Notes under the pieces: generated by a model
What the model was told of the DNA's origin: nothing
The model's database searches: none
The model's input: the letters and a program-made list of their open reading frames with translations, nothing else
NCBI RefSeq assembly: GCF_006345805.1
Contig: NW_021825075.1
Location: 1 to 16,403 of the forward strand
Reading direction: 5' to 3'
DNA length: 16,403 bases
DNA from: Octopus sinensis
Lineage: Eukaryota
In this document: positions 2,654-14,690 of the stretch, piece after piece
How positions within the stretch are numbered: the first letter of the stretch is position 1
Layout of the letters: every line of letters begins with the position of its first letter
Made by a program: the position numbers and the translations under genes

Positions 2654-3553
2654 GTATTTTCCTCATAACTTTTTATCGGGAAAATTTTATCTTTGTTCAG
2701 ACCTAGAGAGAGATGGGCACTTCTGATCTTAAGTTACCGAGAACGCATATCTCTCGAAGATGCACAGTGTCACGTAAAAAGATATGATAAAGAAAGACAT
2801 TTTTATTTTAGCCTTTTTCTTTTGCTTAAATGTTTTTATTTTGTTGCGTTTTTCTTGGGCACAAAAATCATTGCTGTGAAACGTTACCGTGAAGCTGTCG
2901 TATTCATGTATATGGTTACCTACTTAAAACTTTATAAGATGAAGTTCTGCTCTTTTTACAGGAAGTTTCATCTGTCTCAAAACTTAGTTTCCTATCATGC
3001 AGACAGTGACAGCTTGCTTGGGGAACATTAAATATGCATGACATCGATTTCTGTGACTCCAAATGATAACAGTGTTACGATAATTGATATACTATTACCA
3101 AACGTCTAGCGGGAGCGGATTGCTTTGAGAAAAAGCATTAAGTGGATGTAAACATACGAATTTCACATGTCAATCAGGTCTGACCTATTCGACATTTCTG
3201 TCTCTTCTTGGCTTTTCTGTCTTTGCTTTGTTTTATATTTGCTCAGTTCTAAATCTAATTAGAATATCTTGGGAGAATCCTACAGTTGTAGCGATAATAG
3301 ATTTAGTATCTAGCTTATGGTCAAAGCAAACATGAGAACCAAACGGAATTTCTTGTGACGTGGAAATCTAAAGGACAGTATCGACAAATGCCATCGCCAA
3401 CAAATCACTGATATTCGGTTCTTCTATACCATATTCCTATCTCATTCTATACTAATTCTAGCCAGGTTCGTTACTTTGTTTCTGGAGAATTTTTTAAGAT
3501 TTCTACAATGCCTAGACACGATATACTCCAGGTTCAATAGAAAAATAACTTGT

Positions 3554-3879
3554 GAGGTAAAGAGAAACAAGAGGATAAGACTGGCGATAATCCTAACGAA
3601 TATTATCTGGAAAATAATTTTTTTTAAAATCTGAAATGGTCTTTCGCGGAACATATGTTTAGAAGGAAGAACAATAAACGGAATGGCGAATTGACAGAGT
3701 GGACACCACGTCCAAAAGAAAAAGAGGGATAGGAAGACCATGCAGTAGTTGCAATGAAGACTTTGTTAAATTCTTCACCCCCCATACATACATAAAAAAA
3801 CATCAGGCCGTAGTTGGTGGAAAGAATACGCTGAGGCCTTCGTCCAACAGTACATAGTACATTTGTGAGGATGATGATG
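3554..3879 (+). mobile_element. Decayed 3' end of an RTE-clade non-LTR retrotransposon
   Basis: With frameshifts it reads KRNKRIR..LTNIIWKI / LKWSFAEHMFRRKNNKRNGELTEWTPR / KRGIGRP / GRSWWKEYAEAFVQQYIVHL* (stop 3866-3868), then a (GAT)3 tail. This matches the RTE C-terminus pattern LKW.WAGH..RR...W.PR..KR..GRP...DR..W....EAFVQQW. Confidence 0.85.
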
Positions 3880-3932
3880 TATCATGGATAAGGATATAAC
3901 TTAAAACACAGCACTTGCACCACACACATGAA

Positions 3933-4092
<160 letters not shown>

Positions 4093-4229
4093 CCAACGAC
4101 CTCGAACCCACACGTGTAACAAGAGAGACAAAGACGGCAGAAACAAGGAAAATGTCAATTGTATTTGAATACTATGCAAATATTCTTTAAAAAACTTTTC
4201 TTTTAATTTTTCTAAATTTAATTGTTTAC

Positions 4230-4271
4230 TTTCAGTTGAAAAAGTCTCAATGACTGAAACCGATACTGAAA
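4230..4271 (+). ncRNA. Degenerate minimal type-I hammerhead ribozyme motif
   Basis: Stem I UUUCAG(4230-35)/CUGAAA(4266-71); core UUGAAAA (2 mismatches to CUGANGA); stem II AGUC-ucaau-GACU; GAAA 4256-59; near-palindromic stem III ACCGAU; triplet AUA. Confidence 0.6.
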
Positions 4272-4585
4272 TGTTTTTATAAAATTATTTTAGCATTTTC
4301 TATCTTGACTTTTTTTCCAGGTTTTATTTTGAATTTCATACGTAAATTTTAGTTATATTTCAGAACTATTTACAATTTTCAAGTGTGTTTCATTTCATAT
4401 CTCACACAACACGGCAAACTTTCAATATCGAATTCTCATAGCATGATTTGTTATAAGTCTCATGCTCCTGAAAGAAAATTTTTGATTGAAATATATTCCT
4501 TTAAAATGATCCTTCACAATACCGATATAACATTTCGCTTGTTTACTAGATTACATAACCATACACGCAGACACATACAGATGGA

Positions 4586-4636
4586 TTGTGTCTGTGTTTG
4601 TGTGTGTGTGTATACGAGTATGTATGACTTTATATA

Positions 4637-4681
<45 letters not shown>

Positions 4682-4799
4682 ATATATATATTAACATAAT
4701 ATATATATATATCTATATATATATTATATATTTATATATATATTACATACATATATAATATATATATATATTATATATATATTTATATATATATACATC

Positions 4800-4822
<23 letters not shown>
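4586..4822. repeat. (TG)n plus long imperfect (TA)n array
   Basis: Seen directly. Confidence 0.95.
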
Positions 4823-4830
<8 letters not shown>

Positions 4831-5589
4831 ATGCGTGTATGTATCTATTTATATTCAAAGTGTATAACTTTAGCATACACTTTGATCTTTCCAGTCTTCA
4901 AGGTGAATGAGAAATAAAATTCTGTAATTCGTTGATCAGAATCCCTTCTGTCAAAGTAAAATATGGCTTTCCTTCATTTGCCATCAAAGATTACTACCTG
5001 TCCGTTCCTGAATTCCTCTATAAAGATGTACGCAATTTTGCAAAATTCTTCTTGCCTAATAATGCTTCAGGAAACACCACCATATTATACGAAACTAAAT
5101 CAACTTTATGCGACGTTAAGATCGTCTGTATGAATAAAAAAAAAATACTACTAAATATGCACCTAATATTTGTACGTGCTCAATGTATTTGGTTAAAATT
5201 TACATCGCCCTTGGCAGCCACATTGCGAATTCTACGTATTCTCCGAGTAATTTACAAGCATGATAACCTTGTAAACCCACATAGTACCAACCGCTAACGA
5301 ACAGAGGTGATTAAAATGGCTGCGGAATTTCTTAAAATATTGCAGGATATAAAATAATTATCGATTCTAAATTCAAGATTGTAAACTTTTACAATGATAG
5401 ATCTCACTCCAATTTCTCTGAATTTTTCTTTTCGGAAATGCTAACGAATTCCTCTACAACGTACATAATGCAGATGGAAATTCTAGTTAAGTTTATTGCT
5501 TCACGAATTTCTAGTCACTGTGCCTACTATCTGTTGAAACCTCCTATTGGCTGAAACTAAGAAGATTCCGTGAATGTAAAGACAGACAC

Positions 5590-5675
<86 letters not shown>

Positions 5676-5798
5676 GGATGGATGGATGGATGGATAGATA
5701 GACAGATAGATAGATACATACATACATACATACACACATACACACATTCATACATACACATATATATATATACAAATATATGCATATATATATATATA
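5590..5798. repeat. Compound (GATA)n(GGAT)n(CATA)n(TA)n array
   Basis: Seen directly. Confidence 0.96.
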
Positions 5799-5801
5799 TT
5801 A

Positions 5802-6000
5802 CTTTTACTTGTTTCGGTCATTTGACTCTGGCCATGCTGGAGCACCGCCTTTAGTCGAGCAAATCGACCCCAGGACTTATTCTTTGTAAGCCTAGTACTT
5901 ATTCTGTCGGTCTCTTTTGCCGAACAGCTAAGTTACGATGGCGTAAACACACCAGCATTGGTTGTCATGCGATGTTGGGGGCGGGCAAATACAGACACAC
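5802..6000 (-). mobile_element. 3' half of tRNA-derived SINE family B
   Basis: The minus strand begins gtgtgtctgtatttgcccgccccc, matching gtgtctgtgtttgtcccc that follows the microsatellite in the copy at 6027, and ends ccagcatggccagagtcaaatgaccgaaacaagtaaaag. The family assignment is from recall of Octopus repeats. Confidence 0.7.
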
Positions 6001-6026
6001 AACCATATACACACGCATACATATAT

Positions 6027-6240
6027 GTGGTAAGTAGATTGCTTACGAACCACATGGTTCCGTGTTCAGTCCCACTGCGTGGCACCTTGGCCAAGTCTCT
6101 TCTGCTATAGCCTCGGGCCGACCAGAGCCTTGTGAGTGGATTTGGTAGACGGAAACTGAAAGAAGCCCGTCGTATATATGTATATATATATATATATATA
6201 TATGTTATGTATATGTTTGTGTGTCTGTGTTTGTCCCCTC
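6027..6240 (+). mobile_element. 5' half of tRNA-derived SINE family B, with internal (TA)/(TG) microsatellite
   Basis: tRNA-like head gtggtaag...; B-box-like GTTCAGTCC at 6064-6072; body ...gaaagaagcccgtcg, then (TA)n and gtgtctgtgtttgtcccc. Confidence 0.75.
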
Positions 6241-6283
6241 CTCTGTCGTGTTTCAGCCCTAAGCCTACGGCCATGCTGGGGCA
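6241..6283 (-). mobile_element. Isolated SINE 3' tail (family B-related)
   Basis: gtttcagc...ggccatgctggggca is shared with 12380-12416 and with the terminus at 5811-5844. Confidence 0.6.
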
Positions 6284-6317
6284 TACACACACATACAACC
6301 CACACCCACACACACAC

Positions 6318-6357
<40 letters not shown>

Positions 6358-6401
6358 ATGTGTGTACATGGCATACGATTTAGCTCAAAGACTAACAATT
6401 G

Positions 6402-6535
6402 CATATTATATCGCTCTCAGTGCGAGAGTGGTAGGTTATTTCATCGACCTTGGACTAATGAAAGCAAAGTTGATTTCGGCAGGATTCGAACTTAAGAAGC
6501 CAGATGAAGTAACATACGGCATATATTGCAACGAT
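6402..6535 (-). mobile_element. Old, degenerate copy of SINE family A
   Basis: atcgacc...atgaaagcaaagttgatttcggcaggattcgaactt resembles atcgacc...atgaaaggcaaagtcgacctgggcggaatttgaactt at about 8256-8308. Confidence 0.6.
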
Positions 6536-7380
6536 ACTCTCAGCATGCAAATATAGAAATTGTTTAATCCGCCTTTATACGCCACATCCAATACACACAT
6601 AATCCATTTCATAAATCCTTCCTTCCGTGTCTTAAATATTAAAGATTAGCAAAAGATATTTATAGTGTTTAACTTAGCTTTCTACAATATTTATCTAATA
6701 TTAACCCCATAAATATCTCCTCTTTTCACCTTAATCTCCACCTACTTTCAAATATAGTAACCCCGAATTAATTTCCGATCGTGAATTCACTTATAGATAG
6801 CTTAATTCTTAATCATATCCTGATTTCGTTATTATTTTTAATTACGCTACAGACATTATGTCAGTAAAAACAATTTAAATAATACAAGAGTAAACACGAA
6901 CAAATCTCTCTAAATATATCTTGAATGCGACGCCCAATAACATAAACAATTATATCGAGTGAAAAATAAAGACTCTTTGCAAGTTTTATGAGTAATTACA
7001 ACATGCTCTGTCTAGTCTGCATTTCTAAATCTTACGAAGAATAAATCTCTAAACTCTCCGCCTAACAACCTCTGTTCTCATAAACGCTTCACTCAAAATA
7101 TTTATCGATTTTTACAGCGTTGGATTTAAATTGTCATCGATGTTTACACGATCCGTCTGCTCGAAAGAATCTAAACGTGAAGCAACGATATATTTTTATC
7201 ATACGAAGATCATGCTTCAATTAACTGATTTATTAAATCGTGCCAGACGCGCAGCAAACTTATATTCGATACAATTGTCTACACTGGAAAATGGGAATAC
7301 CTTTCGCTGTGACAAAAGTCACGGGAGAAAATCTCACTTGTTCGACAAGATCTGTGAAAATACATTGAGGAATAAATGAC

Positions 7381-7492: not shown

Positions 7493-8130
7493 CGTCGTCG
7501 TCATCACCTTTCATACGCCTGCAACGCATTGATTGTACTACAAAGCAAGCCTTCTCGATTAAGCGCGATTCCTGCAGCTGGCTTGTCCAACCAGCTCTTG
7601 ATATTTTACCATTCATTGATTTAAGGCGGTGAGCTGGCAGAATCGTTACCGCACCAGTCAAAATGCTTAGCGGCATTTCGTTTGTCTTAAGTTCAAATTC
7701 TGCCGAGTTCGACTTTGCCTCGCATTCCTTCGGGAACGATACAATAAGTACCACTTGAGCACTGGAGTCGATGTAATCCACCAGTCCCCTCCACCTAACT
7801 TGCTGGCCTTGTGCCAAAGTTTGAAATCGATATTTTCCATCCATTGCCTTCTTTACCTGCCTCTTGATCCACTATACTCTACTCTTCTTTCTATTATAAC
7901 ATTTTCCAAACTTCTTCTTCAAATATAGCCATTATAGACGAGCTTTGTTTTTTCAAAATGTTTAAGATTTGTCTTTCGCCTACTTGTAACACCCAGTCAT
8001 TGTGCAATGATCCTCCTAAGAAGCTCGCAACATTCTCCAATACACCCACATTTCAAACGCATTGTGATATCTTCAAATTCTATCAGTGCCCACGCCTCGC
8101 AATCAGGAATACATTAAATATCACTAAATA
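7493..8130 (-). mobile_element. Decayed RTE (BovB-like) LINE 3' fragment, split by a SINE insertion at 7619-7828
   Basis: The minus strand reads, with stops and frameshifts, CEAWAL / NAFEMWVYWRMLRAS*EDH / NDWVLQVGERQILNILK / KLVYNGYI*RRSLENVIIERRVEYSGSRGR*RRQWMENI [SINE] KSWLDKPAA / RNRA*SRRLA, then a tgatgacgacgacg tail. This matches the RTE YGCE.W...AFEMW..RRMLRI.W...GRQR..W.DNI pattern. Confidence 0.88.
7619..7828 (+). mobile_element. Full-length SINE family A with ~18-bp target-site duplication
   Basis: Head ggcggtgagctggcagaatcgtta; B-box-like GTTCAAATTC; body shared with the 8151 and 11461 copies. TSD gatattttaccattcattg (7600-7618) / gatattttccatccattg (7829-7846). Confidence 0.88.
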
Positions 8131-8150
8131 TCATTGTACATGAATATATG

Positions 8151-8374
8151 TTTCTTTATTACCCACAAGGGGCTAAACACAGAGGGGACAAACAAGGACA
8201 GACAAACGGATTAAGTCGATTATATCGACCAAGGTGCGTAACTGGTATTTAATTTATCGACCCCGAAAGGATGAAAGGCAAAGTCGACCTGGGCGGAATT
8301 TGAACTTAGAACGCAACGGCAGACGAAATACGGCTACGCATTTCGCCCGACATGCTAACGGTTCTGCCAGCTCG
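8151..8374 (-). mobile_element. Near full-length SINE family A
   Basis: The reverse complement closely matches 11464-11692 (gagctggcagaaccgttagca...gttcaaattccgcc...gcctttcatcctttcggggtcgat...tttagccccttgtgggtaataaagaaa). Confidence 0.92.
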
Positions 8375-9524: not shown

Positions 9525-9654
9525 GACACACATGCACAAACACACACACACTAACACAAACACACATAGATAAAAAGATACAGCTATATACACAATACAT
9601 ACTTACATACATGTACGTACAAAAACACACACATATAGCTATACATACATATAT

Positions 9655-9699
<45 letters not shown>

Positions 9700-9723
9700 A
9701 AAAATATAATATATATATATAAA

Positions 9724-9755
<32 letters not shown>

Positions 9756-9941
9756 TATGTGTATATATATATATGTGTGTGTGTATGTATGTATAATGTA
9801 GTTATCTGTCTATCTATATATTATATAATATATATATATATAGACAGATCCTACATTTATACATACATACACACACACACCACACACATATATATGATAT
9901 ATATATATATATATATACATACACACACATATATATATATA
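9525..9941. repeat. Compound (CA)n/(TA)n/(TG)n low-complexity block
   Basis: Seen directly. Confidence 0.93.
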
Positions 9942-9977
9942 TGTCTGATGAACGGCAACGGGAAACTCAGAGTAACA
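9942..9977 (+). ncRNA. Type-I hammerhead ribozyme motif, intact core
   Basis: UGU | CUGAUGA (9945-51) | ACG-GCAA-CGG | GAAA (9962-65) | palindromic ACUC-A-GAGU | GUA triplet (cleavage predicted after 9974) | ACA pairing with UGU. Confidence 0.7.
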
Positions 9978-10081
9978 GGTTTTGTTGAATTTTTCTGCTG
10001 CTTTAAATAAAGCATATTACTCTACCACTAGTATTTGAGTACTCTTTTTCCACCTTGTTTCACATTTATGTTTACTCCGGT
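9942..10081 (+). mobile_element. Short HHR-bearing interspersed repeat, copy 1 (5'-truncated; putative Penelope-like/retrozyme terminal repeat)
   Basis: Clearly homologous to 14065-14206. It starts with an HHR, carries AATAAA about 30 nt downstream, and is embedded in (TA)n. Confidence 0.75.
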
Positions 10082-10103
10082 ATATATATATATAATATAT
10101 ATA

Positions 10104-10196
<93 letters not shown>
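10081..10196. repeat. (TA)n(GA)n compound microsatellite
   Basis: Seen directly. Confidence 0.97.
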
Positions 10197-10198
<2 letters not shown>

Positions 10199-10364
10199 TG
10201 AAAGAAAAATCACATATTCAATTAAGTAAAAATATGTAATTAAATATGTGATTTGAAGAAATAATATGTGATATGTAAATAACTGTATTTTTTTTTAATA
10301 CAGCCATCCAGCATTCTGAACGCCTTTTTCTTTCATATGTACATCATCCCCAAAACTAAGTGAT

Positions 10365-10632
10365 ACAAAAGAGGACAACAACACATCCAGATAGACGATG
10401 CAAAAAAAAAAAACGCGGACGGGTCATTCGAAGCCTTTTATCTTCTGTCAAGAACCGGATCATCCCCGCAATTTCGGCTGATTAATCTTGAGATTTCTCC
10501 AATCTGGCCAGCCCCAAGGAAAAACTAAGCTAAGAGCATTAGATATCTTAGAAAAAAAGCATCGAATATGTACGAAAACAAGGATAGAAAAACAGACGAT
10601 GTTACACGAATATAAATACAAAAATACAATAA
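10365..10632. mobile_element. Unclassified interspersed repeat abutting (TA)n
   Basis: GC-richer island with an internal inverted repeat (ggctga...ccagcc; agatt...aatct) next to a (TA)n tract. It resembles a recurrent Octopus repeat from recall only and is single-copy in this window. Confidence 0.4.
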
Positions 10633-10644
10633 AAAAAAAAATAT

Positions 10645-10664
10645 TAATATATATATAATATATA

Positions 10665-10717
<53 letters not shown>

Positions 10718-10806
10718 TATATATATGATACGTATATACACTATACATAATGCATATTGTGTATGTATATAATATATATGTGTGTGTGTGTGTGTGGTAT
10801 GTGTGT
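10645..10806. repeat. (TA)n/(TG)n block
   Basis: Seen directly. Confidence 0.93.
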
Positions 10807-11269
10807 CAGAACGTAGGGTGGGGTGTGAAGTATAATTGTAACAACGATAGAAATAATATGTACAATAAATACATCAATTCGATGTATTTCTCTGTAAGTA
10901 AATAAACAAATAGATAAATGCTGGAAAGATCAAAATATCAACCCATAAAAAAAGTTGTTTTAACCTTCCAGCAATTCAAGCGATTCTACCTAACGTTCTT
11001 GAATAACGTCTAGAATAAATATTTTCTTTTCTTTCCCTCTTCCTCTCGTCTCTTTCTCTCTCTCCCCTTCCCTCGTTCTTCCGTTTCTCTTCACAGAACC
11101 TATCGCATTCTTGGTCTTTGCGTATTTTCTGTACCTCCCCGCTTCACTACATCCCTTTTTCACTCCCATTTTCTCTTCTTTCCGATGCTATATTTCATTC
11201 CGACTTTTCTATCCAAACATATATATTTTACGTAATGTAACTATGGAAAAACGAACCACCCATGAGCCT

Positions 11270-11460
11270 CACTGAGGTCGCCCGATCTGCTAGATATAGC
11301 AACCAATTCTCCTTCAATTCCATAACTATCTCACGTTTCTCAGGAAAAGACACTGGTTAATTTTGTCCTATTTTCCTGGTTTGTAGGAAAATGAACAGAT
11401 CGTCACGGACGGAGAGCCTGTGTGTTTAAATCTGTTCGATAAGAGCTGATTTAGTGTTAA
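11270..11460 (+). mobile_element. Old SINE-like 3' fragment, the target of the 11461 insertion; terminus continues at about 12110-12141
   Basis: cccgatctgctagatatagcaacc...gtcacggacgga...gctgatttagtgttaaaaacaagcaa resembles an Octopus repeat ending in (CAA)n (recall only). Confidence 0.4.
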
Positions 11461-12109
11461 TAGGCGACGGACTGGCAGAAACGTTAGCACACCGGACATA
11501 ATGCTTAGCGGTATTTCGTCTGCCGCTACGTGCTGAGTTCAAATTCCGCCGAGGTCGTCTTTGCCTTTCATCCTTTCAGGGTCAATTAAATAAGTACCAG
11601 TTACACACAGGGGTCGATGTAATCGACTTACTCCGTTTGTCGGTCCTTGTTTGTCCCCTCTGTGTTTAGCCCCTTGTGGGTAGTAAAGAAATAGGTATTT
11701 CGTCTGCCTTTCATCCTTTCGGGGGTCGATAAATTAAGTACCAGTAAACGCACTGGGTCGATGTAATCGACTTAATCCCCTTCTCCTTGTTTGTCCCCTC
11801 TGTGTTTAGCCCCTTGTGGGTAGTAAAGAAATAGGTATTTCGTCTGCCTTTCATCCTTTCGGGCGTCGATAAATTAAGTACCAGTAAACGCACTGGGTCG
11901 ATGTAATCGACTTAATCCTTTCTCCTTGTTTGTCCCCTCTGTGTTTAGCCCCTTGTGGGTAGTAAAGAAATAGGTATTTCGTCTGCCTTTCATCCTTTCG
12001 GGGGTCGATAAATTAAGTACTAGTAAATGCACTGGGTCGATGTAATCGACTTAATCCCTATCTCCTTGTTTGTCCCTTCTATGTTAAGCCTCTTGTGAGC
12101 AATAAAGAA
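11461..12109 (+). mobile_element. SINE family A followed by three tandem ~140-bp copies of its internally deleted body, within one 22-bp TSD
   Basis: Head at 11463; extra units start with ggtatttcgtctgcc at 11694, 11834 and 11973 (periods 140 and 139). TSD ataagagctgatttagtgttaa (11439-11460) / ataagtgctgatttagtgttaa (12110-12131). Confidence 0.93.
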
Positions 12110-12379
12110 ATAAGTGCTGATTTAGTGTTAAAAACAAGCAAAATAGAACTAATTTAAACGTGAAAATGGATTCCACATACGAATGAAAAGTTTGAAGGTG
12201 ACTAAGTACATTCTGACATTCTGACCGCTATCTCGGTGCTGGGAAATATTATTTATATAGCTACAGTTTGAGTATAATTGATATGGGTATATGTGTGCGC
12301 GGGGGGGTTATGATTTCCGCTGAAGAAATACACGTGGATACTTTAAAATGTATCATTTCATTTTGTTTTTCATTACATC

Positions 12380-12414
12380 TAGTTTCAGCTCACGAGCTGT
12401 GGCCATGCTGGGGC

Positions 12415-12416
<2 letters not shown>
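12380..12416 (-). mobile_element. Isolated SINE 3' tail (family B-related) adjoining (TA)n
   Basis: gtttcagctcacgagctgtggccatgctggggca; compare 6241-6283. Confidence 0.6.
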
Positions 12417-12454
<38 letters not shown>

Positions 12455-12636
12455 CAATGTTATGAGGTCATCGTGTTTATATTAATCTGTGTTCATCAAA
12501 TGCATTTCGCATGTTGTATTGAAACAAGTGTAACTACAGGATTGAAGATAATATCAAAAATTCCATTTTTTTAAAAATTTGAGATATATATAGCTACATA
12601 TGTATATAGATATATGTATGTGTACGTACGTATGCT

Positions 12637-13020
12637 GAGGTGCAATGGCCCAGTGGTTAGGGCAGCAGACTCGCGGTAATAGTATGGCGGTTTCGATTCC
12701 CAGAGCGGCCATTGTTAGTGTTTATTGAGCAAAAACAACTAAAACTCCACGAGGCTTCGACAATGGGTGTTGGTGAACCCTGCGGTACTCTTTCTTCCTG
12801 CTTCTGTTGTACCTGTATTTCGAAGGGCCAGCCTGGTCACACTCTGGTGCCAAGCTGTATCGAACTTTGCTCTTCTCTTGGATAACATCGGTGGCGTAGA
12901 GAGGCGATGCTGGTATGCATGGGCGACTGCTGGTCTTCCATGGCCAATTTGGCTAGACTGGTGCCTCGGAGGGTAACTTTCTAGGTGCAATCCCATGGTC
13001 ATTCATGACCGAAGGGGGTC
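12637..13020 (+). mobile_element. Full-length tRNA-derived SINE family C (about 385 bp)
   Basis: Pol III A box TGGCCCAGTGG (12646-12656) and B-box-like GGTTTCGATTCC (12689-12700) at tRNA spacing. 3' stem-loop ggtca-ttca-tgacc (12997-13010). Possible TSD atgtgtacgta at 12618 and 13026. Confidence 0.85.
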
Positions 13021-13053
13021 ACACAATGTGTACGTATATGAGTGTATATATAT

Positions 13054-13220
13054 ATTTCTTTACTGCCCACAAGGGGCTAAACATAGAGGGGACAAACAAG
13101 GACAGACGAAGGGATTGAGTCGATTACTGGTACTTTATTTATCGACCCCGAAAGAATGAAAGGCAAAGTTGACCCCGGCGGAATTTGAACTCAGAACGTA
13201 ACGACATACGAAATACCGCT
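13054..13220 (-). mobile_element. 5'-truncated SINE family A with a small internal deletion
   Basis: Matches 8151-8335 in the same orientation and lacks the ~20-nt atatcgacc...gcgta segment. Confidence 0.9.
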
Positions 13221-14010
13221 TTGTATATATATGTGTGAGTGCGTGCATTCGTGTGTGTATGTGTTAGTCTCTGTGTGTGTGTATGTGTGTGAGTGTGTTT
13301 GTGTTTGTGTAAACATAGAGAGTTATGAATGAAAAGTGATGTGTAAGATTAGAATTCGAATAACAAGAATTATCAATAAAAGTCGAAAATCATGTAGCTG
13401 CGATTTCGGGAAAGTGTAAATTAACACACAACTTCCATAACGGATATTGTATCCCAACGAATAGCACAACAAATTCAGCTTCTCTAGATATACTTCTATT
13501 TAGTGTGATACACAGATTGACATTTTCAACTAATGCTGCAGTAGCTACTAACGAACTTTTATTCAGTCAGTAAGTTACCTGCAAAATCAGGGATTTTAAA
13601 ATTATTTTTCTGCTGTAATGAAGTTTTTTTTCTTCTTGGTATGCAGTTGCCTTAAGGCACATCGTGCGGAAGAATCGCAGGAAAAAGGAGAAATGTGTAT
13701 CGACCATTCTTGCCACCGCTGCTAGGCGACTTCCGTCTACTGCAGCGCCTGTTAATTTGGTTTCCTATGATCTCTCAGCACGTCTATGACATATACACTG
13801 TAAATATGTATACCCACCGCCACACATGTATATATGATATATAATATGCATCTGTATATATACTTATACGTACATAAACACACATATTCATATATATATA
13901 TTGTTGTATTTGAGAATGGTCATTTTGCCAGTTTAGCCAATAAAAAATCTTGCACAAGAAATATATAAACGCAATATATATATATATATATATATGTATA
14001 TACATATATA

Positions 14011-14203
14011 CTTTATTGTTTGAAATTGTTCGAAATTGTTATTTCGGTTCTATTTTAACAAAACTGTCCAACGAACGAGAGCGTGAAACTCCGAGTAACA
14101 GCTTTTGTTATATTTCTGCTGCTTTTAAATAAAGCATATTACTCTACCTCTGGTATTTGAGTACTCCTTTTTCCACCTTGTTTCACATTTCTGTGCTTAC
14201 TCC

Positions 14204-14206
<3 letters not shown>
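14011..14206 (+). mobile_element. Short HHR-bearing interspersed repeat, copy 2 (longer)
   Basis: Homologous to 9942-10081 and flanked by (TA)n on both sides. Confidence 0.75.
14056..14110 (+). ncRNA. Type-I hammerhead ribozyme motif, intact stems but mutated core
   Basis: Stem I UAACAAAA-CUGU / ACAG-(C)-UUUUGUUA (12 bp, one bulge); core CCAACGA (14068-74, versus CUGANGA); stem II ACG-AGAG-CGU; GAAA; ACUC-C-GAGU; GUA triplet. Confidence 0.65.

Positions 14207-14266
<60 letters not shown>
14206..14266. repeat. (TA)n(GA)n compound microsatellite
   Basis: Seen directly. Confidence 0.97.
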
Positions 14267-14268
<2 letters not shown>

Positions 14269-14369
14269 AAGTTTATTTGCCAACAAAATGCTGTTTTCTC
14301 CACTATGGAGTACACGAAGGATGATAAGTTATGGAGACTTTGAGCAAGTCGTTATAGTATATCAGCTCT

Positions 14370-14414
<45 letters not shown>

Positions 14415-14425
14415 ACAGCAGCAGC

Positions 14426-14464
<39 letters not shown>

Positions 14465-14690
14465 GGTGATAGTAGTAGTAGTAGTAGTAGTAGTTGTTGT
14501 TGTAGTAGTAGTAGCATTATTTGTAGTAATAGTAGTTGTAATAGTGGTGTTGGTGGTGGTGTTAGTTGCAGTAGGAGGTGGACGAGGAGGAGGTTGCAAC
14601 GATGGCGACGGCGACGACTAGCAGAATGAGTAAGGGTCGTAGGGGTAGGAGTAGTAGGAGCAGCTGTAAGAAGGGGGAGGTGGTGGATGG
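14370..14690. repeat. (TAG)n trinucleotide array decaying into CAG/TGG/TTG/GAG variants
   Basis: Seen directly; it explains the poly-Ser and poly-Thr ORFs. Confidence 0.93.

What the first reader, a model, noticed from the sequence alone, without database searches (positions are those of the whole stretch)
9942..14206. Two copies of one HHR repeat with complementary defects and loop-focused variation
Seen: copy 1 (9942) has an intact CUGAUGA core but an A-G mismatch at the base of stem II and a stem I truncated by (TA)n. Copy 2 (14056) has a 12-bp stem I and perfect stem II but core CCAACGA. Loop II (GCAA vs AGAG) and the stem III centre (A vs C) differ, while ACUC/GAGU, GAAA, GUA and UGU/ACA are kept. 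Merging them gives a fully canonical HHR. Both carry AATAAA inside a tgcttt...aaagca inverted repeat about 30 nt downstream. Inference: a ribozyme + poly(A) signal terminal-repeat module. The palindromic stem III suggests dimeric cleavage, and both copies are on the same strand about 4.1 kb apart.
Basis: partly seen in the sequence, partly recalled or inferred. Interest (0 to 1): 0.75.

Follow-up and report, generated by a model that had tools for sequence, protein, structure and literature searches.

The report
Penelope-like retroelement tails with hammerhead motif
The two repeats are broken-off tail ends of a known kind of jumping gene (a Hydra-type Penelope-like retroelement, present in thousands of copies in this genome) that carries a small hammerhead motif predicted to cut RNA, so the finding is real but ordinary.

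Summary
Both copies, their cores, loops and the predicted GUA sites (9974, 14097) are as described.

They are not terminal repeats of one element. They are two independent, 5'-truncated 3' ends of a very abundant retroelement (anchor motif 10,595 times in the 2.7-Gb genome, control 0). Each lies in its own (TA)n tract. No element DNA or ORF lies between them.

[quoted passage not shown] The frame has the RWK, DKT and CxCX5C motifs that Craig et al. 2021 give for the 'Hydra' clade of Penelope-like elements (PLEs). That clade inserts in (TA)n and carries hammerheads.

The motif matches published Hydra-clade hammerheads in helix I and helix III.

Copy 1's 'intact' CUGAUGA is probably a CpG-to-TpG decay product of a CCGAUGA lineage. 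The 'A-G mismatch' is lineage-typical.

The AATAAA hairpin marks the alternative internal 3' end, the PLE 'tail' signature. It is not a demonstrable poly(A) signal.

Dimeric folding is predicted. Cleavage is untested.

The scan has noted PLE hammerheads in other genomes, none in this one.

Verdict: new member of a known kind, low to moderate interest.

The parts
9942..10080 (+). Copy 1: 5'-truncated 3' end (139 nt) of the PLE family, lineage B background
   Evidence: blastn to a full-length element (L050, reverse strand): element 3254-3394 = window 9942-10081, 93%; sequence
9942..9986 (+). Copy 1 hammerhead motif: UGU, CUGAUGA (9945-9951), A-CG-GCAA-CG-G, GAAA, CUC-A-GAG-U, A17 (9974), helix I 3' strand; helix I 5' strand lost
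   Evidence: Read; this exact 35-mer occurs 31 times genome-wide against 708 for the CCGAUGA form
9999..10014 (+). Hairpin tgcttt/aaagca holding AATAAA; the family's alternative ('short') 3' end falls after 10012
   Evidence: 46 of 82 sampled copies end at ..AAATAAAG directly on (TA)n
10013..10080 (+). Copy 1 'tail': optional 3' extension ending CTTACTCCGG
   Evidence: 36 of 82 sampled copies carry it; 21 of 21 head-to-head pairs have it on one arm only
9640..9941 (.). (TA)n-rich target tract upstream of copy 1
   Evidence: TRF array 9640-9942, period 2
10081..10196 (.). (TA)30 then (AG)29.5 downstream of copy 1 (target microsatellite)
   Evidence: TRF
14030..14205 (+). Copy 2: 5'-truncated 3' end (about 176 nt; 5' limit uncertain, 14020-14034), lineage C
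   Evidence: blastn: element 3222-3394 = window 14034-14206, 83%; 93-96% identical to 39 other scored genomic copies
14057..14109 (+). Copy 2 hammerhead motif: helix I 11 of 12 pairs, core CCAACGA (14068-14074; C4 and A5 non-canonical), ACG-AGAG-CGU, GAAA, CUC-C-GAG-U, A17 (14097)
   Evidence: Read; most of the 30 related loci printed read CCGACGA, so A5 fits CpG-to-CpA decay
14120..14136 (+). Hairpin tgcttt/aaagca with AATAAA; 'short' 3'-end site after 14134
14135..14205 (+). Copy 2 'tail' ending CTTACTCCGG
14206..14267 (.). (TA)n then (GA)n downstream of copy 2
   Evidence: Read

Best explanation
The two repeats are independent, 5'-truncated 3' ends of one family of Hydra-clade Penelope-like retroelements (PLEs) inserted into (TA)n microsatellites, and each carries the family's minimal type-I hammerhead motif, which is predicted (not tested) to self-cleave only as a dimer.

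Shown here:
- The repeat is the last 140-175 nt of an element of about 3.3 kb. [quoted passage not shown]
- The family has over 10,000 3' ends in the genome.
- Copies end at one of two sites 66 nt apart, both directly on (TA)n.
- Head-to-head pairs always have one arm of each kind.

Inferred from published PLE work:
- The nuclease nicks (TA)n DNA, and the RT starts cDNA synthesis at either of two sites in the RNA's 3' end. One site is the AATAAA hairpin, the other the true end. This would give the optional 'tail'.
- Early stops or template switches would give 5'-truncated and inverted copies.
- The hammerhead, about 18 nt upstream of the hairpin, would cleave multimeric (pseudo-LTR) transcripts by pairing two copies through the palindromic helix III.

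The two window copies are dead fragments. Copy 2's core is broken (C4, A5), and copy 1 has lost helix I.
For: Abundance and ends:
- 7,123 and 10,595 pattern matches against 1 and 0 in the controls.
- About 25 of the 30 loci printed end CTTACTCCGG followed by a TA run (hand count).

Longer elements:
- L050: open frame of 723 aa, HHR about 1 kb behind the stop, end on (TA)n, inverted 5'-truncated copy upstream.
- L051: 727 aa, HHR at 7106.

Clade marks:
- RWK, DKT, CxCX5C (CNCKSESSC), FDIIDFY, YRDD and VVY...YTG are present, with no Cys inside the GIY-YIG core.
- These match the definition of Hydra PLEs in PMC8557442 section 11 and the printed alignment.
- Atlas neighbours at 0.96-0.99 carry GIY-YIG and RVT_1.

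HHR homology:
- Most published rows have an unpaired N on each side of helix II.
- Ours reads ctgt ctgatga-a cg gcaa cg a-gaa actc a gagt a acag.

Window:
- No element DNA or ORF lies between the copies.

Tail signature:
- 46 short and 36 long ends among 82 copies from 60 loci. 21 of 21 inverted pairs are long plus short. Compare PMC11167929 and PMC8557442 section 6.

Dimer:
- The cofold MFE (-26.2 kcal/mol) is the double hammerhead.
- The monomer MFE (-12.0) is not the HHR fold (-7.3).
Against: - Pfam hmmscan finds no family in the 723-aa frame at E<=0.1. phmmer and a 4-sequence profile find nothing in the PDB at E<=10. The RT/GIY-YIG call therefore rests on motifs, the published alignment and Atlas leads.
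- No RT phylogeny was made.
- The element is about 3.3 kb, while Hydra PLEs are described as 'generally short (<3 kb)'.
- L050's open frame has no Met before residue 107, so that copy may lack its start.
- Rfam finds no Hammerhead family at gathering score, at E<=10 in the window, or in five loci with canonical-core copies.
- Helix II is only 2 bp plus a tetraloop, with A opposite A, G or U at 10.1/11.1.
- Lineages B and C have C4 in their consensus.
- Only 2 of 81 sampled copies begin at the predicted cleavage site.
- No RNA evidence was obtained.
Confidence: 0.88

Rival explanations
1. The motif is a hammerhead-derived relic that no longer cleaves. It would be kept in the element's 3' UTR as a structured RNA, for instance for RT binding, stalling or template switching, not as a ribozyme.
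For: - C4 instead of U4 in the consensus of lineages B and C.
- C4 in a second abundant Hydra-type family (2,417 C4 against 223 T4).
- A opposite A or G at 10.1/11.1, and a 2-bp helix II.
- No Rfam hit.
- 41 of 81 5' junctions lie 30-50 nt upstream of the cleavage site, at the 5' foot of the motif. Only 2 of 81 lie at the site.
- HHR mutants did not affect insertion in vitro in another PLE (PMC11167929, passages seen).
Against: - The youngest lineage (A: 2.6% mean divergence, long open frames) has the full canonical core.
- Differences between the lineage consensuses fall at N7, loop II, 11.1, loop III and the helix I mismatch. None breaks a Watson-Crick pair.
- A U4C hammerhead is reported to keep enough activity in vivo for viroid infectivity, and natural 2-bp helices II are known (PMC3088659, passages seen).
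Confidence: 0.3
2. One reading: the two copies are the terminal repeats (ribozyme plus poly(A) signal) of one element of about 4.3 kb spanning 9942-14206.
For: - Same strand, 4.1 kb apart, both followed by (TA)n(GA)n.
- PLEs do form pseudo-LTRs. Same-strand HHR pairs about 3.3 kb apart occur elsewhere in this genome (places listed).
Against: - There is no similarity to the element or its ORF between the copies. The interior holds other repeats: a 140-bp tandem array and SINE-like repeats.
- The copies belong to different lineages: 93% against 83% identity to lineage A, and different diagnostic bases.
- No copy in the family ends in poly(A).
Confidence: 0.03
3. The repeat is a non-autonomous 'non-LTR retrozyme': a short HHR-bearing unit that multiplies through tandem arrays and circular RNA, independently of a coding element.
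For: - Very many short copies (140-200 nt) hold little more than the HHR and the 3' end.
- Animal retrozymes are proposed to derive from PLE pseudo-LTRs (bioRxiv 10.64898/2026.07.22.740005, abstract seen).
Against: - The short copies are collinear with the 3' UTR of the coding element and have graded 5' ends typical of truncation.
- Only 1 of 60 sampled loci held two direct copies close together (L085).
- There is no tandem array in the window.
Confidence: 0.05

Closest known systems
Hammerheads of Hydra-clade PLEs (Craig et al. 2021, PMC8557442, File S2 table read), e.g. Hydra-2_aMil and Hydra-2_aJap
   Same: - Type I motif near the 3' end of a short single-ORF RT plus C-terminal GIY-YIG element that inserts in (TA)n.
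- Helix I CUGU/ACAG, helix III ACUC-N-GAGU and A17 are the same as in Hydra-2_aMil.
- There is an unpaired nucleotide on each side of helix II, as in most rows of the table.
   Different: - Helix II is only 2 bp closed by GCAA or GGAA. The published rows have 3-7 bp.
- The flanking nucleotides are A/A, A/G or A/U instead of mostly U/U.
- Two of three lineages have C4, whereas every row of the table that I read has U4.
- The 3' UTR is about 1.1 kb, so the element is about 3.3 kb.
Hydra-1_Obim (Octopus bimaculoides, 2,507 bp, (TA)n; same paper, metadata sheet)
   Same: - Same clade marks in the ORF (RWK, DKT, CxCX5C) and the same (TA)n target.
- By eye, the second family seen here (L047 type) resembles it most: core c-y-gaagag and the stretch YRKPNDRLSYIN.
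   Different: [quoted passage not shown] The window's family is therefore another family. I made no computed comparison with it.
Minimal dimeric hammerheads of metazoan PLEs (Cervera and de la Pena 2014, PMC4209133; about half of the text read)
   Same: - Short palindromic helix III that needs two copies.
[quoted passage not shown]
- Thousands of mostly solitary copies, with pairs on opposite strands 100-700 bp apart.
   Different: Those motifs have a long helix II (7-8 bp) and a short helix I (4-5 bp). Here helix II is minimal and helix I is 11-12 bp with one internal mismatch or bulge.
'Tail' and two internal RT start sites of Poseidon PAc (Frangieh et al. 2024, PMC11167929; passages seen)
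   Same: Two alternative 3' ends a few tens of nt apart, one at a stem-loop. The optional tail is present on one end of an insertion unit.
   Different: - The tail here is 66 nt, against 30-40 bp.
- The stem-loop is AT-rich and holds AATAAA.
- The HHR lies in the 3' UTR just upstream of the start site, not across the ORF start.
Non-LTR retrozymes of animals (PMC7229834, listing and abstract start only; bioRxiv 10.64898/2026.07.22.740005, abstract)
   Same: Type I HHR with a weak helix III, and a proposed link to PLE pseudo-LTRs.
   Different: No tandem unit arrays were seen here. No circular RNA evidence was obtained.

Membership tests
Hammerhead ribozyme, type I | Conserved core: C3 U4 G5 A6 N7 G8 A9, G12 A13 A14, A15.1-U16.1, H17 | tested here: met
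   Met in copy 1 and in lineage A (2,551 exact 35-mers). Not met in copy 2 (C4, A5) or in the consensus of lineages B and C (C4).
Hammerhead ribozyme, type I | Three helices around the core, with helix I open-ended | tested here: met
   - Helix I: 11-12 pairs with one mismatch or bulge.
- Helix II: 2 bp plus a tetraloop.
- Helix III: 3-4 bp with a 1-nt centre, extended to 4+4 bp in the dimer.
 Helix II is at the lower limit reported for natural HHRs (PMC3088659).
Hammerhead ribozyme, type I | Match to a curated covariance model (Rfam Hammerhead families) | tested here: not met
   No Hammerhead hit at gathering score, among 43 matches at E<=10 in 9850-14300, or among 135 matches in five loci with canonical-core copies.
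Hammerhead ribozyme, type I | Compensatory changes that keep the helices | tested here: inconclusive
   Within the family the lineage differences avoid paired positions. One (G/A opposite U in helix I) keeps pairing. No double compensatory change was seen. Across the published Hydra table helices I and II differ while staying complementary (read by eye).
Hammerhead ribozyme, type I | Site-specific self-cleavage | not testable with these tools
   No run on record as RNA and no raw reads.
Hydra clade of Penelope-like elements (Craig et al. 2021) | [quoted passage not shown] | tested here: met
   Open frames of 723 and 727 aa with FDIIDFY, YRDD and VVYRAKV...YTG. Atlas neighbours carry RVT_1 and GIY-YIG. 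Caveat: no Pfam or PDB profile hit.
Hydra clade of Penelope-like elements (Craig et al. 2021) | RWK motif, DKT instead of DKG, CxCX5C linker, no CCHH inside the GIY-YIG core | tested here: met
   RWK at 49, DKT at 125, CNCKSESSC at 574, and no Cys between VVY and YTG...SH. Definition.
Hydra clade of Penelope-like elements (Craig et al. 2021) | Insertion into (TA)n | tested here: met
   About 25 of 30 loci (hand count) and most of the 82 sampled copies as I read them (not counted) abut a TA run. Both window copies do.
Hydra clade of Penelope-like elements (Craig et al. 2021) | 'Generally short (<3 kb)' | tested here: not met
   About 3.3 kb from the start of the frame to the 3' end in L050 (reverse-strand coordinates 3674-6990). 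The excess is a 1.1-kb 3' UTR.
Hydra clade of Penelope-like elements (Craig et al. 2021) | Placement in the Hydra clade in an RT phylogeny | not tested
   Reference sequences were seen only as text in the supplement and were not entered into tools.
PLE insertion signature | 5' truncation, adjacent inverted 5'-truncated copy, optional tail on one end only | tested here: met
   21 of 60 sampled loci hold head-to-head pairs in which both arms keep the anchor, and 21 of 21 are one long plus one short end. 5' ends are graded.
Non-LTR retrozyme | Head-to-tail arrays of a short HHR unit | tested here: not met
   No array in the window. 1 of 60 sampled loci holds two direct copies 299 nt apart.

The most novel reading that the evidence does not exclude
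In this genome the hammerhead of prolific PLE lineages ran with C instead of U at core position 4 in the master copies. This holds for lineages B and C of this family, and for a second family with 2,417 C4 against 223 T4 copies. The youngest lineage regained U4 by a single CpG-to-TpG change. 5' junctions pile up at the foot of the motif, and almost none lie at the cleavage site. Together this would mean that the fold serves PLE mobilisation mainly as an RT stop or template-switch structure that seeds head-to-head insertions, with self-cleavage dispensable.
Probability: 0.2. Interest if true: 0.55.

Novelty: new member of a known kind. Interest (0 to 1): 0.27.

Why it matters
It assigns a conspicuous ribozyme-like repeat to a described class: Hydra-clade PLEs with hammerheads and a (TA)n target. 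This guards against reading the two copies as a new ribozyme/poly(A) LTR system.

Three modest points go beyond the published descriptions I read:
- This family is very abundant (over 10,000 3' ends).
- Its lineages form a dated series of natural core and helix II variants (C4 to U4; A/U, A/G and A/A at 10.1/11.1; 2-bp helix II). These could be assayed directly to ask what PLE hammerheads are for.
- Its insertions show the PLE 'tail' asymmetry cleanly (21 of 21).

Tried and rejected
- Rfam: only low-complexity miRNA-type matches on the microsatellites, and no Hammerhead family.
- Pfam on ORF pieces and on the full frame: nothing usable.
- PDB sequence and profile searches: nothing.
- First candidate for the parent element: the GIY-YIG ORF abutting a tail in L034. 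It proved to be a different family (L047 type, 44% aa identity) whose copies lack this tail. The true parent was found through L033.
- RNA evidence: no RNA holder is listed. The four runs laid are contigs of guessed type. They show only much higher summed depth over the last ~190 nt, and no ends or joints that can be read.
- tRNA scan of the window: none.
- Earlier scan notes: PLE hammerheads are noted in other genomes. There are no notes on this genome, and none changed my reading.
- Idea that CUGAUGA arose by CpG decay throughout the family: rejected. CUGAUGA with lineage A marks is a discrete, young, very large lineage. The decay reading holds only for copy 1's haplotype.


Full report
**Observation**

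- Copy 1 reads UGU-CUGAUGA-ACG-GCAA-CGG-GAAA-CUC-A-GAG-UA, with A17 at 9974.
- Its helix I 5' strand is replaced by a (TA)n array (TRF 9640-9942).
- Copy 2 has an 11-of-12-pair helix I (14057-14067 with 14098-14109).
- Its core is CCAACGA, followed by ACG-AGAG-CGU, GAAA and CUC-C-GAG-UA, with A17 at 14097.
- Both continue with a tgcttt/aaagca hairpin around AATAAA.
- A further ~66 nt end in CTTACTCCGG (10080; 14205), and then come (TA)n and (GA)n.
- MAFFT gives 145 invariant of 228 columns, flanks included.

**It is a high-copy repeat**

- A DNA search of the window's own genome (2.72 Gb) with copy 2 gave 2,608 first-look candidates. The 40 scored were 93-100% identical, including the window's own copy.
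- The pattern AAAACTGTCYRAYRAACG occurs 7,123 times, against 1 for the reversed control.
- The hairpin anchor TTCTGCTGCTTN{1,2}AAATAAAG occurs 10,595 times, against 0.
- My hand tally of the 100 rows listed gives 52 CTGATGA, 27 CCGACGA, 15 CCGATGA and 6 others.

**What the repeat belongs to**

- Many copies continue upstream for about 1.5 kb. In L033 this runs into decayed RT/nuclease-like reading frames.
- A protein search with that piece, cross-referenced with the pattern places, led to longer elements.
- L050 (reverse strand) has an open frame of 723 aa at 3674-5842. The motif with CUGAUGA starts at 6853, and the element ends near 6990 on (TA)n. An inverted 5'-truncated copy of the 3' UTR lies at 2790-3660. 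This frame has no Met before residue 107.
- L051 has a 727-aa frame with a Met (MELYPLDF...) near its start, and the same motif at 7106.
- The frame holds RWK (49), DKT (125), FDIIDFY (261), YRDD (356), WFNP (500), CNCKSESSC (574, a CxCX5C) and VVYRAKV...YTG. There is no cysteine inside that GIY-YIG-like core.

These are the marks that Craig et al. 2021 give for their 'Hydra' clade of C-terminal-nuclease PLEs:

- RWK present;
- DKG changed to DKT;
- a CxCX5C linker;
- no CCHH;
- insertion into (TA)n in almost all families;
- canonical hammerheads;
- hosts including Mollusca (PMC8557442 section 11; alignment text in the supplement).

The supplement lists one octopus family, Hydra-1_Obim (2,507 bp, (TA)n).

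Negative results:

- Pfam finds nothing in the frame at E<=0.1.
- PDB sequence and profile searches find nothing at E<=10.

As a lead, ESM Atlas neighbours at 0.96-0.99 carry GIY-YIG, RVT_1, HTH_animal and DUF8422. I made no phylogeny.

**The hammerhead in context**

- The supplement's table of Hydra-clade hammerheads shows a common plan. It runs: helix I, ctgaNga plus one unpaired base, a 3-7-bp helix II, one unpaired base plus gaa, act-N-N-N-agt, H, helix I.
- The lineage A motif here reads ctgt ctgatga-a cg gcaa cg a-gaa actc a gagt a acag.
- So helices I and III and the cleavage triplet are the same, and the unpaired pair flanking helix II is a clade habit.
- The 'A-G mismatch' of copy 1 is therefore not a private defect.
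- Helix II is unusually short (2 bp plus a tetraloop). Natural hammerheads with 2-bp helices II are reported (PMC3088659, passage).
- Rfam's Hammerhead models do not detect the motif, even in canonical-core copies.

**Lineages and the two window copies**

The sample was taken without regard to the HHR. I took 60 of the first 62 insertion events among the anchor places listed on contig C1. I left out the L050 locus, already held, and one pair 2.5 kb apart. The sample holds 82 copies.

51 of the 82 keep a complete motif, with these haplotypes:

| Haplotype | Core | Loop II | Base at 11.1 | Copies |
|---|---|---|---|---|
| A1 and A2 | CTGATGA | GCAA | A | 29 |
| B1 | CCGATGA | GCAA | G | 5 |
| B2 | CCGACGA | GCAA | G | 4 |
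| C and singletons | mostly CCGACGA | mostly GGAA | mostly T | 13 |

Mean difference from the group majority over ~80 columns, which include 12 nt that may hold junction sequence:

| Lineage | Mean difference | Copies |
|---|---|---|
| A | 2.6% | 30 |
| B | 6.1% | 12 |
| C | 11.4% | 9 |

- A is therefore the youngest lineage, and it is the one with long open frames.
- Differences between the lineage majorities lie at position 4, N7, the second base of loop II, 11.1, the centre of helix III and the helix I mismatch. One G/A change opposite U keeps pairing. None breaks a pair.
- Copy 1 carries B marks (CGG, ACAGG, CTTTAAAT) but has U4.
- Genome-wide, its exact 35-mer occurs 31 times and the C4 form 708 times. 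The mirror decay product CCAAUGA occurs 23 times.
- The near-symmetry (31 against 23) fits CpG decay after insertion. Copy 1's 'intact' core is thus most likely an accident of decay.
- Copy 2 is lineage C with CG changed to CA at positions 4-5.
- The lineage A 35-mer occurs 2,551 times.

**Not one element**

- tblastn of two PLE frames against the window gives only a 54-aa match at E=0.72.
- blastn of a whole element matches only 9942-10081 (93%) and 14034-14206 (83%).
- The interior holds other repeats.
- The copies are therefore two solo 3' ends that landed in a microsatellite-rich stretch.

**3' ends, tail and the AATAAA hairpin**

- Of the 82 sampled copies, 46 end at ..AAATAAAG directly on (TA)n. 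The other 36 go on for 66 nt to ..CTTACTCCGG, again directly on (TA)n. None ends in poly(A).
- In all 21 loci where both arms of a head-to-head pair keep the anchor, one arm is long and the other short.
- Frangieh et al. 2024 show that a PLE RT starts at two sites inside the RNA's 3' end, with the tail lying between them.
- The hairpin is therefore best read as the inner start site. That reading is inferred.
- A poly(A) role is not supported by any genomic copy.

**Fold and function**

- The lineage A monomer prefers a non-hammerhead fold (-12.0 against -7.3 kcal/mol).
- The two-strand MFE (-26.2) is the classical double hammerhead. It has helices I in trans and an extended helix III, ACUC.GAGU twice around an A.A.
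- This agrees with the dimer model and the weak in-vitro activity reported for metazoan PLE hammerheads.
- 5' junctions do not mark the cleavage site. By local alignment, 2 of 81 copies begin there, 41 of 81 begin 30-50 nt upstream at the foot of the motif, and 25 extend at least 74 nt upstream.
- RNA evidence could not be obtained.
- Whether the motif cleaves, and what for, stays open. The published proposals are processing of multimeric pseudo-LTR transcripts, possibly followed by circularisation. I take these as the likeliest function and mark them as inferred.

**Second family**

- A second Hydra-type family has 717-aa frames 44% identical to the first. A search with its nuclease part gave 24,358 first-look candidates.
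- About 190 nt behind its stop it carries agataa-ccgaaga-gatg-(22 nt)-catc-u-gaa-acuc-a-gagu-u-uuaucu. This form is found in 17 of 18 occurrences in the loci held.
- Genome-wide the C4 form occurs 2,417 times and the T4 form 223 times.
- Core position 4 is therefore C in the master of a young, prolific family.
- A U4C hammerhead is reported to lose much activity in vitro yet suffice in vivo for a viroid.

**Verdict**

The element is a new member of a known kind: a Hydra-clade PLE with its hammerhead and tail. The reading of a terminal repeat with a poly(A) signal is not supported. The window copies are inert fragments.

Noticed in passing
L047:5636-5709 (also L034, L037-L049): A second, very abundant Hydra-type PLE family (717-aa frame) carries a hammerhead-like motif whose core reads CCGAAGA, with C at position 4, in 17 of 18 occurrences in the loci held. 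Genome-wide there are 2,417 C4 copies against 223 T4 copies.
   Followed up: partly
L052-L111 (60 loci on contig C1 of the own genome): 5' junctions of truncated or inverted copies cluster 30-50 nt upstream of the predicted cleavage site (41 of 81), at the 5' foot of helix I. Only 2 of 81 lie at the site itself. This may be an RT stop or template-switch point.
   Followed up: partly
window 14010-14017: ACTTTATT stands directly after the upstream (TA)n of copy 2. It is the reverse complement of the 'short' 3' end (AATAAAGT). It may be a vestige of an inverted arm, or chance in AT-rich DNA.
   Followed up: no
window 11562-12112: A tandem array of a 140-bp unit (3.9 copies, 92% matches). Its sequence recurs in SINE-like dispersed repeats at 7611-7781, 8143-8370 (inverted relative to 11472-11699) and 13048-13220.
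   Followed up: no
window 14370-14545: A long (GTA)n trinucleotide array (58.7 copies) just downstream of copy 2. The whole window is unusually rich in TA, GA, GATA and CA microsatellites.
   Followed up: no
L034:18-810: A tail of the window's family ends at CTCCGG and is joined directly, without (TA)n, to a 5'-truncated copy of the second PLE family (open GIY-YIG frame 139-810). This looks like a chimeric or nested insertion.
   Followed up: no
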